Positions 6,658 through 10,558 of a DNA stretch of 64,000 nucleotides are shown piece after piece. This stretch comes from the human T2T-CHM13v2.0 reference genome, Homo sapiens, in assembly GCF_009914755.1 (NCBI RefSeq), contig NC_060930.1. One strand, given 5' to 3'. Each line of letters begins with the position of its first letter. Positions within the stretch are counted from its first letter, which is position 1. The notes beneath the pieces were generated by a model that was not told where the DNA came from, did no database searches, and worked only from the letters and a program-made list of their open reading frames with translations. Both the position numbers and the translations under genes were made by a program.

Positions 6658-7920
6658 TTAGTTTGGTGCAAAAGTAATTGCTGTTTGGGACCATGAATTT
6701 TAAGTCATTATAACTAGGTTCACACAAATCTTTATTAATTAAAATAGGAACCATTACAATCAACACATTTTTGCCAATGAGAAATAAGTTTGTTTACTCC
6801 TGTAGCATAAAAATCCATGCTTCCAAATTTGACGAACTCTTGGAAAGCATTTTCTGTGTCCTGCTAGTTGTGGAAGCAATTTCCCTGCAAAACGTTGCTG
6901 AGATGCCTAAAGAAGTGGTAGTTTGTTGGCAAGAGGTCAGGTGAATATGGCAGATGAGGCAAAACTTCATAGCCCAATTAGTTCAATTTTCGAAGCGTTG
7001 GTTGTGCAACGTGCGGCCCAGTGTTGTCGTGAAAAGAATTGGGCCCTTTCTGGTGGCCAATGCCGGCTGCAGGCATTGCAGTTTTTGGTGCATCTCATTG
7101 ATTTGCTGAGCATACTTATCAGATGTAATGGTTTCACCTGGATTCAGAAAGCTGTAGTGGATCAGACTGGCAGCAAACCACCAAACAATGACCATGACCA
7201 TTTTTTGGAGCAAGTTTGGCTTTGGGAAGTGCTTTGGAGCTTCTTTCAGTCCAGCCACTGAGCTGGTCATCGCCAGTTGTCGTATAAAATCCACCTTTTG
7301 GCACACATCACAATCCGATAGAGAAATGATTCATTATTGTTGCATAGAATAGAGAAAATGACACTTCAAAACAACGAATTTTTTTATTTTTCACTCAGCT
7401 CATGAGGCACCCATTTATTGAGCTTTTTCACCTTTTCAATTTGCTTCAAATGCCGAACGACCATAAAATGGTCAACATTGAGTTCTTGGGCAGCTCTCTT
7501 ATAGTTGTAAGAGGATCAGCTTCGATGATGTTCTCAATTGGTCATTATCAATTTCCGATGACTGGCCACTGCACTCCTCATCTTCAAGGCTCTAGTCTCC
7601 TTTGCAAAACTTCTTGAGCCATCACGGCACTGTATGTTCATTAGCAGTTCCTGGGCCAAATGCATTGTTGATGTTGTGTGTTGTCTCTGCTGCTTTATAA
7701 CCTATTTTGAACTCAGAAAATCGCTAAATTTGATTTTTGTCTAACATCATTTCCATAGTCTAAAATAAATATAAACAGCAATAAGTCATTAGCAAAAAAA
7801 AAGTGAGAAATATGCTTAAAATGATGTATAACATAACCACATTTATTTAAGAATGTACTCCAATATAAAACGGCAAATTTCAACAATGCAAAAACCGCAA
7901 TTACGTTTGCACCAACCTAA
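6658..7920 (-). mobile_element. Near full-length Hsmar1 mariner DNA transposon with decayed transposase (7756 to 6735)
   Basis: TIRs TTAGTTTGGTGCAAAAGTAATTGCTG and (reverse complement) TTAGGTTGGTGCAAACGTAATTGCGG, with TA at 7921-7922. Remnants MEMMLDK, APKHFPKPNL, IHYSFLNPGETIT, YSPDL and GSYF; several stops and frameshifts. Confidence 0.95.
7622..7701 (-). CDS. PGM3: PGM3 alternative terminal exon inside Hsmar1, (G)YKAAETTHNINNAFGPGTANEHTVP*
   Basis: Acceptor AG at 7703-7702; phase-compatible donor CAG|GTTTCT at 10477/10476; predicted 566 aa. The peptide matches the Hsmar1 transposase N-terminus. Confidence 0.7.
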
Positions 7921-9096
7921 TATTTTCCTTTTTCAGGATTTTACTTTAAAATAAGCAATAAGCTTGAGAGCACATAGAAGAAAATAAGCTGGATTTTGCA
8001 TCTGCTTGACCCACTAGGAAACTAGTGATATTAAATTATTAGGTAAACAATGAAAGTTTCTGAGCAACATCTGATCTTAGAAGGCAAACTCCATTTGTTA
8101 ATATGACAGATTGTAATTCTGCTTCCTAAGTCTTCATGATTTCTTCCTTCTGTCTAGTTCATTGCTTATTTTCATTCTTTAGTGTGGAATTGTATCTGTG
8201 ATTCTGCCCAAGTTCAACCAACCTGTTCTCTCTTATCTTTCTCTAGACAGAATGATGTCTGTAGCTGTGTTTGTGTAATTCAGGTGGCTTCTCAAACTAG
8301 CCTCTTAATACCCAAATTATTAGTCTTTATATTTAGTTGACAGAGTTTTCACATACCTTCTCATTTGACTTCTCTACTAAAAGGTAGTTTTAGACTGTCC
8401 CATTTTATAAGTGAGGAACCTTTGTATATCCTGCCCAAGGGTGCCGTAAGTATGGCAGAGCCAGCACACTAACTCAATTCCTTTGACTCCAGGTCCAGCT
8501 TTCCTCCCTATGTTGTTTAGCACAACCCAGAAGGAGACAGCAGTGTCTCCTGAGGGATCCCTTCCTTTCTCTGTGATGCAGTACTGACAGTAATTATTCA
8601 CTTTGGACACTGCTACCATCATGGCAAATTTAGGCCATTTAGATAAAAGGGAATTAACTAATTATAATAAAAGGGGATATATTATGAAATGTATAAAGCA
8701 CTTTGTTCCTTTTTTCTGTAGTAATTTTGTGACCTAGTCCTTGGTTACAGTAGTGAGGGTTCAGAAACCTGGGAGCTTTTTGAGTAAATACAAAGCACAA
8801 CATAAAACTTTTATGTTTGACTCTATTCCTGTTCAAAGCTATTTCTGTTAACTAAGCTTATCTGCGCATTCTAGTTGGGAACTATTACTACAATGTTAGA
8901 CTGCTCCATGTAAAACTAATAAATGGCAGTAAAAGGTCTCAGAAGCACCAAGGGTTTTGATCAGGTCAGGAGTTAGAAACTTAATGTCATTTGTATTCAT
9001 TTCTTGACCAACTGCCAAAGTTTATATATTTTTAATTTTTCTAACATACCACATTGTCTGTTGTATTAATACCAGTTCACTTTTTGTTTTCTGCAG

Positions 9097-9402
9097 AAAA
9101 ATCCAGAGGAAGACAACTCAGGGAGAACATTGGGTTGGGAGCCAGGGCACTTGCTGCTCACCATCTGCACCGTGCGCAGTATGGAGCAGCTCCTGCCGTT
9201 CTTCAATGTGCTCAGTCAAGTCTTCAACAGCAAAGTCACAAGCCGATGTGGAGGACACTCAGGGAGTCCTATCCTCTACTCAAATGCCTTCCCTAATAAG
9301 GACATGAAACTGGAGAACCACAAACCATGTTCCAGCAAAGCCAGGCAAAAAATAGAAGAGATGGTAGAAAAAGATTTTCTGGAAGGGATGATAAAAACTT
9401 GA
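9097..9402 (+). CDS. DOP1A: DOP1A last coding exon, KNPEEDNSGRTLGWEPGHLLLT...EMVEKDFLEGMIKT*
   Basis: Acceptor tttttgttttctgcAG ends at 9096. In frame with ORF 9130..9402; TGA at 9400-9402. Confidence 0.93.
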   Translation, partial: KNPEEDNSGRTLGWEPGHLLLTICTVRSMEQLLPFFNVLSQVFNSKVTSRCGGHSGSPILYSNAFPNKDMKLENHKPCSSKARQKIEEMVEKDFLEGMIKT

Positions 9403-10468
9403 GCACCATTGCTGGTTCCATTTAGCTTACATGTAAATGTAATTATTTAAAACACACACACTGCTCTGCGTTGTATAGTTTTTCCTTTTTTGTATGTAAC
9501 AGAACACATTTCAGATTGTATTTAATTTAAATATTTGTATATAAGAGCAAATGTCTGAATGTGGCCTGAATCAAGTTTAAATATTGTTGGCTCATACTGA
9601 TTATGGTGCCTAAGAGAGCTATATATATACACATGTAAAGTCCATTGTTTTTATTGTCCTGAGTTGTCTTAAACCTGCAAAATATACACTACCCATTTTT
9701 TTTTTCCATTGGTTTCAGACTTGGTTCAATTAAGATTGGTTGGGGATTTTTCTCTTTTCCTTATTAACCATGTTCTGGTATCAGAATGGTGTTCCTTCTC
9801 CATCAGAGGCTGGGAAACGTATTATAATTAGTTTTTCTCCCACATACCTTCACCAAGAGCAGTGAAGAATAACTGAAGGCTGGACCATGCATCCTTAAAA
9901 GTATTGCATGAGCATCTCCACCTCAGTATGGAAGAGGGATGGACAACCCCCTATTCATACCTCTGAGTTCCTGATGGCATTAGTCATATAGGTAAGTCAT
10001 CTAATAATCTTTCTTAAGACTCTGCAATGGAAAAACTGGTTGTATAAAGTCTTCTCTGCCCTCTCCATTTGTATCAGCAATGGGGAATGCTGCAAAACAT
10101 CATCTTGCTCATGTGATGGTAATGGCAAAGATATCACAAGGAGTTGGTAATAAGATTTAATTTTCCAGTAGCCTGCATGAATTGTTCCCCACATAAAACT
10201 GTACAGTTAGTGACTGAATTGTATACTTAAGTCCCAGTATTTTACATTAGTGAGACTGAAATTAGAGGTAAATTTCTTTAACAAGTGTAAGGCTTACCTA
10301 TTTATAAAGAATTATTCTGTTAGTGTTTAAGAAAAACAGATCTAGAGACAATCCAGTAGGCTGCATTGTAAACATTATGATTATAAATCTCTTAGTACTG
10401 CCATTATTATTGACAGTTTTGTAAAGACTTGTAAAAAGTCCAGTTTCTCAGGAATATGAAAATTATCT

Positions 10469-10558
10469 TCAGAAACCTGGTTGGGGCCTTTCTCCAATTC
10501 CTCCAGCCAGCTGAAATACTGCCAAGCTCACTTCATGTGCAAGGTGATCTGCACTTTC
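10469..10558 (-). CDS. PGM3: PGM3 last coding exon, [29 protein letters not shown]
   Basis: Acceptor tttgcAG; 90 nt; TGA at 10471-10469. Confidence 0.95.

What the first reader, a model, noticed from the sequence alone, without database searches (positions are those of the whole stretch)
7622..10477. PGM3 can splice in frame into an Hsmar1 transposase: a truncated SETMAR-like host-transposase fusion
Seen: the last PGM3 exon has a cryptic donor at its penultimate codon (CCA G|GTTTCTGA, 10477/10476). Inside the co-oriented Hsmar1 copy, AAAATAG|GTTATAAAGCAGCAGAG gives an acceptor at 7703-7702. Joining them replaces Phe542 with YKAAETTHNINNAFGPGTANEHTVP* (566 aa). Knowledge: the Hsmar1/SETMAR transposase reads ...FKMGRKAAETTRNINNAFGPGTANERTVQWW, so the tail is in the native transposase frame (first HTH). 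The AG appears to derive from ATG>ATA and the stop from TGG>TGA. I recall a PGM3 isoform with this C-terminus being catalogued, but not its mariner origin. Inference: this parallels how SETMAR arose, here cut short to a 25-aa primate-specific tail on an intact mutase.
Basis: partly seen in the sequence, partly recalled or inferred. Interest (0 to 1): 0.9.

Follow-up and report, generated by a model that had tools for sequence, protein, structure and literature searches.

The report
Hsmar1-derived alternative PGM3 tail exon
An already annotated minor form of the human sugar-metabolism gene PGM3 ends in a 25-residue tail read from a dead mariner (Hsmar1) transposon in its 3' untranslated region; this is ordinary transposon exonisation, not a working SETMAR-like fusion.

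Summary
On the minus strand, the donor CAG|GTTTCT (10477/10476) joined to the acceptor ATAG|G (7703-7702/7701) turns the 542-aa PGM3 reading frame into 566 aa, ending at TGA 7624-7622. Both exon edges equal RefSeq exons in the hub table (10477-10558, 7365-7701), so the junction is already catalogued.

The exon lies wholly inside a decayed 1263-bp Hsmar1 copy (6658-7920). The tail is in the native transposase frame and matches SETMAR residues 350-374 at 21 of 25 positions. Among 30 Hsmar1 copies of this genome:
- the acceptor AG occurs only in this copy;
- the TGA occurs in 3 of 30;
- an AATAAA 18 nt before the exon end occurs in 3 of 30.

"SETMAR-like fusion" is too strong. The tail is a partial first helix-turn-helix: Pfam HTH_48 scores 15.3 bits against a 24.1 cutoff. 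Helix 1, most of the recognition helix, the AT hooks, HTH2 and the catalytic domain are absent. The only base-contacting residue of HTH1, R371, is His. SETMAR uses an ancestral acceptor before the ATG; that acceptor is present here but unannotated and out of frame.

Expression, protein evidence and primate conservation could not be tested. Interest is low.

The parts
6658..7920 (-). Decayed full-length Hsmar1 mariner copy (1263 bp), co-oriented with PGM3. It lies inside the canonical PGM3 3'UTR exon (6108-10558) and, on the other strand, inside a DOP1A intron.
   Evidence: TIR arms; TIR core 18 of 19 at both ends; SETMAR DBD match at E 1.6e-29; Pfam HTH_48 and Transposase_1, the latter in a different frame; paralogous copies at 80-86% identity. 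There are 9 in-frame stops in the first 129 codons.
7892..7920 (-). 5' terminal inverted repeat, preceded by TA (7922-7921)
6658..6686 (-). 3' terminal inverted repeat, followed by AA rather than TA (6657-6656)
10477..10558 (-). Shortened last coding exon of PGM3, ending at the internal donor CAG|GTTTCT (GT at 10476-10475)
   Evidence: equals a RefSeq exon in the hub table
7702..10476 (-). 2775-nt intron removed from within the canonical terminal exon. It takes out the last two bases of the Gly541 codon, the Phe542 codon, the canonical stop (10471-10469) and the proximal 3'UTR.
7702..7703 (-). Acceptor AG, created by G>A in the transposase Met codon (ATG>ATA). The G is the first base of the transposase Gly codon.
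   Evidence: AG at these columns in 1 of 30 copies; 25 of 30 have G at 7703; SETMAR has Met-Gly here
7365..7701 (-). Alternative exon, probably terminal, lying wholly within Hsmar1
   Evidence: equals a RefSeq exon in the hub table
7625..7699 (-). 25 codons of the new C-terminal tail, corresponding to SETMAR residues 350-374 (part of HTH1)
7622..7624 (-). Stop TGA, derived from the transposase TGG (Trp375 of SETMAR)
   Evidence: 27 of 30 copies have G at 7622 and 3 of 30 have A
7592..7594 (-). Next in-frame stop TAG, from GAG. It limits any read-through to 10 more residues (the recoded stop plus 9 codons).
   Evidence: T at 7594 in 1 of 30 copies
7383..7388 (-). AATAAA hexamer ending 18 nt before the annotated exon end at 7365, with a GT/T-rich stretch downstream. 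Probable poly(A) signal.
   Evidence: AATAAA in the homologous stretch in 3 of 30 copies and ATTAAA only in 3 more
7760..7761 (-). Ancestral 'SETMAR-type' acceptor AG (TTTATTTTAG|AC) 5 nt before the transposase ATG. Present here but not an annotated exon edge. From donor 10477 it would be out of frame and give a 15-residue tail.
   Evidence: AG in 25 of 30 copies

Best explanation
This is transposon exonisation that creates an alternative 3' end of PGM3.

An Hsmar1 element inserted in sense orientation into what is now the PGM3 3'UTR and decayed. Three point changes in this copy made a usable 3' module:
- a G>A that turns the transposase ATG-GGT into ATAG|GT, giving an acceptor;
- a TGG>TGA 26 codons later, giving the stop;
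- a change in an A-rich stretch that gives AATAAA 18 nt before the annotated exon end.

A weak internal donor that splits the Gly541 codon of PGM3 can pair with this acceptor. The resulting mRNA encodes PGM3 residues 1-541 plus 25 residues in the transposase frame (566 aa). The stop lies in a terminal exon, so the mRNA would not be a target of nonsense-mediated decay.

The tail is a fragment of the first helix-turn-helix. It is most likely a neutral or nearly neutral appendage on an otherwise complete mutase, made as a minor isoform.

Shown: the anatomy, the frame, the derived state of the sites and the annotation match. Inferred: that 7365 is a cleavage site, that the isoform is minor, and that the tail has no DNA-binding function.
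For: Junction, frame and lengths come. The exon edges are identical to the hub's RefSeq exons.

Derived states among the 30 aligned copies:
- acceptor AG in 1 of 30;
- TGA in 3 of 30;
- TAG at 7594 in 1 of 30;
- AATAAA in 3 of 30.

The splice sites are weak. The donor lacks purine at +3, A at +4 and G at +5, whereas 11 of the 12 constitutive PGM3 donors in the window have purine at +3 and 8 of 12 have G at +5. The acceptor has 9 pyrimidines in -20..-5, against 8-16 in the 12 constitutive acceptors.

The tail fails the Pfam HTH_48 cutoff (15.3 against 24.1 bits). It carries R350Y, R357H, R371H and Q374P relative to SETMAR. R371 is the only base contact of HTH1.

The mean K2P distance of this copy to the 29 others is 0.173. 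It is therefore an ordinary old copy of the roughly 45-50 My Hsmar1 burst (ages from passages).
Against: I saw no transcript or protein data. The only support for use of the junction is the hub's annotation table, which does not say whether the model is curated or predicted, nor which exons are joined in one transcript.

Donor 10477 could also pair with the strong acceptor of exon 2348-2477.

The base after 7365 begins GT, so 7365 could be a weak donor (GAA|GTGTCA) rather than a cleavage site. In that case the stop would lie 257 nt before a junction and the mRNA would be a decay target.

No splice-site scoring model was available, so 'weak' rests on comparison with the gene's own sites.

Neutrality of the tail is inferred, not tested.
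Confidence: 0.75

Rival explanations
1. The transcript is splicing noise or a decay-targeted form. The junction occurs rarely, or exon 7365-7701 is internal and followed by exon 2348-2477 and further exons, so the TGA is premature and no 566-aa protein accumulates.
For: The donor and acceptor are weak. GT follows 7365, and a downstream exon 2348-2477 has strong sites, TTTTGTAG| and AAG|GTAAGT. The hub gives a PGM3 span to -8032. No paper holding the tail peptide was found (0 papers).
Against: AATAAA lies 18 nt before 7365 with a GT/T-rich stretch after it, the normal geometry of a cleavage site. An end caused by internal priming would lie at the A run, not after it. GAA|GTGTCA is a poor donor. 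I recall RefSeq and UniProt listing a 566-aa isoform; this is not from a call.
Confidence: 0.2
2. It is a functional, selected host-transposase fusion. The Hsmar1-derived tail would give PGM3 a primate-specific property, such as a protein contact through the retained HTH1 residue F363, altered localisation or altered stability.
For: The tail is in the native frame and 21 of 25 residues are identical to SETMAR. F363, one of three HTH1 dimer-interface residues, is retained. Residues 1-541 of the enzyme are kept.
Against: The tail is a partial domain below the Pfam cutoff. I341 and F344, the recognition helix beyond residue 374, the AT hooks and HTH2 are absent. R371 is changed to His. Three of the four substitutions fall on Arg codons, as expected for CpG decay (inference). 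The rest of the copy is riddled with stops and at least one frameshift. The splice sites are weak.
Confidence: 0.05

Closest known systems
SETMAR (Metnase): SET methyltransferase exons spliced to an Hsmar1 transposase
   Same: Both have the same transposon family inserted in sense orientation downstream of a host coding region, loss of the host stop by splicing, and a transposase-frame reading of the new last exon. The PGM3 tail is 21 of 25 identical to SETMAR residues 350-374.
   Different: SETMAR keeps an intact 344-codon transposase frame that opens right after the ancestral TTTATTTTAG acceptor before the ATG. Its DNA-binding domain is under purifying selection (PMC8994322, passages). PGM3 uses a de novo AG inside the ORF, keeps 25 codons, and the copy is otherwise dead. 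The steps of SETMAR's birth in Cordaux et al. 2006 are recalled; that paper was not held.
CSB-PGBD3 (ERCC6 exons 1-5 spliced to a piggyBac transposase)
   Same: Alternative splicing of host exons to a transposon-borne acceptor with its own 3' end, coexisting with the normal host protein (PMC3459987; abstract seen in the listing).
   Different: There the whole transposase is retained, the fusion is abundant and it is conserved for more than 43 My (same abstract). Here there is only a 25-residue fragment, and its abundance and conservation are unknown.
Exonisation of transposable elements giving alternative coding or terminal exons
   Same: A point mutation in an old element creates a splice site. 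The new exon is alternative and adds a short, lineage-specific peptide and 3' end. PMC2203978 (passages) discusses how such exons mostly have low coding potential, and separates 'domestication' from 'exonisation'.
   Different: The exonised piece here was once coding and is read in its original frame. This is less usual than antisense Alu exonisation (recalled), but it is a 1-in-3 outcome.

Membership tests
Hsmar1 (mariner/Tc1) DNA transposon copy | Terminal inverted repeats of Hsmar1 type containing the 19-bp SETMAR/transposase binding core | tested here: met
   29-nt arms, 90% complementary. The core is matched 18 of 19 at both ends, against 0.01 matches expected by chance. The core sequence was taken from PMC9062482.
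Hsmar1 (mariner/Tc1) DNA transposon copy | Mariner transposase coding region between the repeats | tested here: met
   SETMAR DBD 7S03 at E 1.6e-29. Pfam HTH_48 at 28.4 bits and Transposase_1 at 71.2 bits, both above their cutoffs, in two different frames. The region is broken by 9 stops in the first 129 codons.
Hsmar1 (mariner/Tc1) DNA transposon copy | TA target-site duplication | tested here: inconclusive
   TA on the 5' side (7922-7921) and AA on the 3' side (6657-6656).
Host-transposase fusion gene (SETMAR-like) | Host exons spliced in frame to transposase-derived coding sequence | tested here: met
   the exon edges equal the hub's RefSeq exons.
Host-transposase fusion gene (SETMAR-like) | A complete transposase domain (DNA-binding or catalytic) is retained in the product | tested here: not met
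   The tail alone scores HTH_48 15.3 bits against a 24.1 cutoff and covers profile 17-39 of 50. It corresponds to SETMAR 350-374 only, has R371H, and has no HTH2, AT hooks or DDE domain.
Host-transposase fusion gene (SETMAR-like) | Purifying selection on, and conservation of, the fused part across species | not testable with these tools
   No primate genomes other than this assembly were available.
TE-derived alternative terminal exon | The exon lies within the element and its splice site was created by mutation of the element | tested here: met
   7365-7701 lies inside 6658-7920. AG at the acceptor columns occurs in 1 of 30 copies.
TE-derived alternative terminal exon | The element supplies the polyadenylation signal and the exon is the last one | tested here: inconclusive
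   AATAAA lies 18 nt before 7365, but GT follows 7365 and downstream exons exist. No 3'-end data were available.
TE-derived alternative terminal exon | Transcript evidence for the junction | not testable with these tools
   Only the hub's annotation table was available; there were no read data.

The most novel reading that the evidence does not exclude
The Hsmar1 copy in the PGM3 3'UTR could be a regulated switch rather than debris. Its two near-perfect TIR cores (18 of 19 each, 6665-6683 and 7895-7913) flank the alternative exon and could be bound by SETMAR, which has been proposed to alter transcription and splicing near its sites. That binding could tune the choice between the canonical 542-aa mRNA and the 566-aa form, whose tail retains the HTH1 dimer-interface residue F363. 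It would couple a domesticated transposase to an exon exonised from its own family, in a gene of the hexosamine pathway.
Probability: 0.04. Interest if true: 0.6.

Novelty: new member of a known kind. Interest (0 to 1): 0.2.

Why it matters
PGM3 is a disease gene: hypomorphic mutations cause a glycosylation disorder with immunodeficiency (abstract of PMC11703855, seen in the listing). Clinical variant tables already use several PGM3 transcript models, so it helps to know what the longer C-terminal model is. Its last exon is transposon debris and the tail is probably dispensable, which is useful when variants there are interpreted.

As evolution, it is a tidy worked example. One G>A, one TGG>TGA and one change in an A-rich stretch turn a dead transposase gene into an acceptor, stop and poly(A) module. 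It sits beside the contrasting SETMAR case, where an ancestral acceptor captured the whole transposase. It does not open a new question.

Tried and rejected
**Literature searches.** None found this exon or its transposon origin in the main text of any held paper.
- PGM3 + Hsmar1 and PGM3 + mariner each returned 1 paper, the same one: a Paramecium PiggyMac study, unrelated.
- PGM3 + transposase: 15 papers held both terms and 14 were listed. None was on this topic, judging by titles and abstract starts.
- PGM3 + 'transposable element' + exon: 5 papers, none on this topic.
- The tail peptide as a string: 0 papers.
- PGM3 + isoform + 566: 41 papers held the terms and 20 were listed. I opened two; in both, '566' was a page number, and only the 542-aa and 570-aa forms were mentioned.
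- Accessions recalled from memory: one, NM_001199918, appears only in a variant table, with nothing on its structure.

Supplementary tables of TE-exon catalogues and bioRxiv supplements were not searched and may list this exon.

**Sources that were not available.**
- Cordaux et al. 2006 was not held.
- A SETMAR review gave no account of the gene's birth, so I read the SETMAR locus itself.

**Other checks.**
- Rfam at gathering threshold over the whole window gave 0 matches, so there is no mir-548-type hairpin here.
- A PDB search with the last PGM3 exon found only a mouse C-terminal domain (1WJW). It says nothing useful about a C-terminal extension.

**Considered and rejected.**
- That the tail is a working helix-turn-helix.
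- That the PGM3 splice re-uses SETMAR's acceptor. It does not.
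Full report
**1. The observation**

On the minus strand the last coding exon of PGM3 ends ...CCC CAA CCA GGT TTC TGA. The GT of the Gly541 codon, followed by TTCT, gives a donor CAG|GTTTCT. Its last exon base is 10477.

About 2.8 kb downstream the strand reads TTCAAAATAG|GTTATAAAGCAGCAGAG, with AG at 7703-7702 and the first exon base at 7701.

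I spliced the hub's coding parts by coordinate. The canonical form gave 542 aa. Replacing the last part with 10477-10558 plus 7365-7701 gave 566 aa, ending at TGA 7624-7622.

The tail, translated directly from 7625-7699, is YKAAETTHNINNAFGPGTANEHTVP. Gly541 is kept, because the G of PGM3 joins the GT of the transposase's own Gly codon.

The next in-frame stop is TAG at 7594-7592.

Both exon edges are identical to the exons listed by the hub under 'other transcripts' of PGM3 (10477-10558 and 7365-7701). The junction is therefore already in RefSeq. I also recall a 566-aa isoform in RefSeq and UniProt, but no call shows that.

**2. What surrounds it**

The exon lies inside a 1263-bp Hsmar1 copy at 6658-7920, co-oriented with PGM3.
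- Its ends are 29-nt inverted repeats, 90% complementary.
- Each end holds the 19-bp core bound by SETMAR (sequence from PMC9062482) with a single mismatch. Chance expectation is 0.01 matches, and 0 of 100 shuffles gave two.
- TA precedes the 5' end; AA rather than TA follows the 3' end.
- Read through with X at stops, the first 129 codons align to the SETMAR DNA-binding domain (PDB 7S03) at E 1.6e-29 over query residues 1-76.
- Pfam finds HTH_48 (28.4 bits). In a different frame further on, it finds Transposase_1 (71.2 bits).
- The copy has 9 stops in those 129 codons and at least one frameshift, so it is dead.

The whole element lies inside the canonical PGM3 terminal exon (6108-10558 in the hub table). 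The alternative form therefore arises by removing a 2775-nt intron from within the canonical last exon. On the other strand the element lies in a DOP1A intron.

**3. Which residues the tail holds**

The 7S03 chain aligned can be numbered from the paper. I341, F344, I359M, F363, R371 and C381R all fall where PMC9062482 places them (passages).

The tail then corresponds to SETMAR residues 350-374, and the stop replaces W375. Against the native SETMAR frame read from this genome (L002), 21 of 25 residues are identical. The differences are R350Y, R357H, R371H and Q374P.

According to the paper, the following hold.
- HTH1 dimerises through I341, F344 and F363.
- R371 in recognition helix alpha-3 makes the only base-specific contacts of HTH1.
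- Most specific contacts come from HTH2 and two AT hooks (residues 384-432).

The tail has only F363 of the interface residues. It has His at 371, ends with Pro three residues later, and has none of the later elements.

On its own the tail scores 15.3 bits against HTH_48 (cutoff 24.1) and covers profile positions 17-39 of 50. It is a fragment of a domain, not a domain.

**4. How the exon was made**

A search of the window's own genome with the element gave 44 matches. I took the 30 best as loci, including the window's own copy and the SETMAR copy, L002 on contig 3. I aligned all 30 with no rows dropped.

| Site | State in this copy | State among the 30 copies |
|---|---|---|
| 7703 (A of the acceptor AG) | A | 25 G, 2 A, 2 T, 1 C; AG at both acceptor columns in this copy only |
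| 7622 (third base of the stop) | A (TGA) | 27 G, 3 A; the other two are L006 and L030, parallel hits |
| 7594 (first base of the next stop) | T (TAG) | T in 1 of 30 |
| A-rich stretch homologous to 7398-7372 | AATAAA | AATAAA in 3 of 30; ATTAAA only in 3 more |

Because Met and Trp each have a single codon, SETMAR's Met-Gly and Trp at these places confirm ATG>ATA and TGG>TGA.

In this copy AATAAA is at 7388-7383, 18 nt before the annotated end at 7365. GTGTCATTTTCTC follows, which is the usual geometry of a cleavage site.

The mean K2P distance of this copy to the other 29 is 0.173 (range 0.157-0.189). The mean over all 435 pairs is 0.179. It is an ordinary member of the old burst, put at about 45-50 My in the passages.

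**5. Strength of the sites**

The donor matches the consensus on the exon side (CAG) and at GT, but has T, T, C at +3 to +5. Of the 12 constitutive PGM3 donors in the window, 11 have a purine at +3 and 8 have G at +5.

The acceptor is TAG|G, preceded by AAAA and a short TTTTCT run. It has 9 pyrimidines in -20..-5, against 8-16 in the 12 constitutive acceptors.

No scoring model was at hand, so this is a comparison, not a score. It fits a minor isoform.

**6. Comparison with SETMAR**

In L002 the intact 344-codon frame opens immediately after TTTATTTTAG, 5 nt before the ATG. An Alu poly(A) tail abuts the truncated 5' end of the element. The start of the exon there is inferred from the in-frame TAG.

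That AG is ancestral. It is present in 25 of 30 copies, including the PGM3 copy at 7761-7760 behind a good pyrimidine tract.

SETMAR therefore captured a ready-made acceptor and the whole transposase. The PGM3 junction instead uses a new AG 58 nt further in. From the phase-1 donor at 10477, the ancestral acceptor would be out of the transposase frame and would give a 15-residue tail. It is not an annotated exon edge.

It is not real for the outcome or for the site used.

**7. What remains open**

I saw no expression data.

Donor 10477 could also pair with exon 2348-2477, whose sites are strong. That would give a 10-residue tail with a stop in an internal exon.

GT follows 7365, so that position could be a weak donor instead of a cleavage site. 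The TGA would then be premature. I rate the terminal-exon reading as more likely because of the AATAAA geometry.

Conservation in other primates could not be tested.

**8. Literature**

No held paper links PGM3 with Hsmar1, mariner or a transposase in this sense. None holds the peptide.

The PGM3 papers I opened mention only the 542-aa and 570-aa forms.

Catalogues of TE-derived exons in supplementary tables were not searched and may list this exon.

**9. Verdict**

The finding is a correct and careful reading of an already annotated isoform. The mariner origin, the native frame and the mutational origin of the acceptor and stop are confirmed. A transposon-derived poly(A) signal is added here.

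It is an instance of transposon exonisation that makes an alternative 3' end. It fails the defining test of a host-transposase fusion, because no complete transposase domain is retained. Interest is low.

Noticed in passing
window 7760-7761 (minus strand); L002 1627-1640: Hsmar1 carries an ancestral acceptor-like TTTATTTTAG 5 nt before its ATG. It is present in 25 of 30 copies and is the site after which SETMAR's intact frame opens. The PGM3 copy keeps it, but no annotated exon starts there.
   Followed up: partly
window 2348-2477 (minus strand): This annotated PGM3 exon has strong sites (TTTTGTAG| and AAG|GTAAGT). Joined to donor 10477 it would give a 10-residue tail with a stop inside an internal exon, a likely decay-targeted form.
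   Followed up: partly
window 6665-6683 (+) and 7895-7913 (-): Both TIR cores match the 19-bp SETMAR binding element at 18 of 19 positions. They are possible SETMAR binding sites inside the PGM3 3'UTR and DOP1A intron.
   Followed up: no
L006 and L030 (columns of window 7624-7622): Two other Hsmar1 copies carry the same TGG>TGA change independently.
   Followed up: no
L002 (G000 contig 3, SETMAR copy): This copy has the lowest mean distance to the other copies (K2P 0.156, against 0.168-0.192 for the rest), as expected for the one copy under constraint. An Alu poly(A) tail directly abuts its truncated 5' end.
   Followed up: partly
window 7702-7756 (minus strand): Relative to the other copies, this copy has lost 6 bases (1 + 5) between the ATG and the new acceptor. 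The frame is kept, and the TTTTCT run is brought closer to the AG.
   Followed up: no
window 9097-12587: By the hub table, DOP1A (+) and PGM3 (-) overlap convergently. DOP1A's last exons and extended transcripts cover the PGM3 terminal exon and exon 11540-11713.
   Followed up: no
window 1-64000: No Rfam family reaches its gathering score anywhere in the window.
   Followed up: yes
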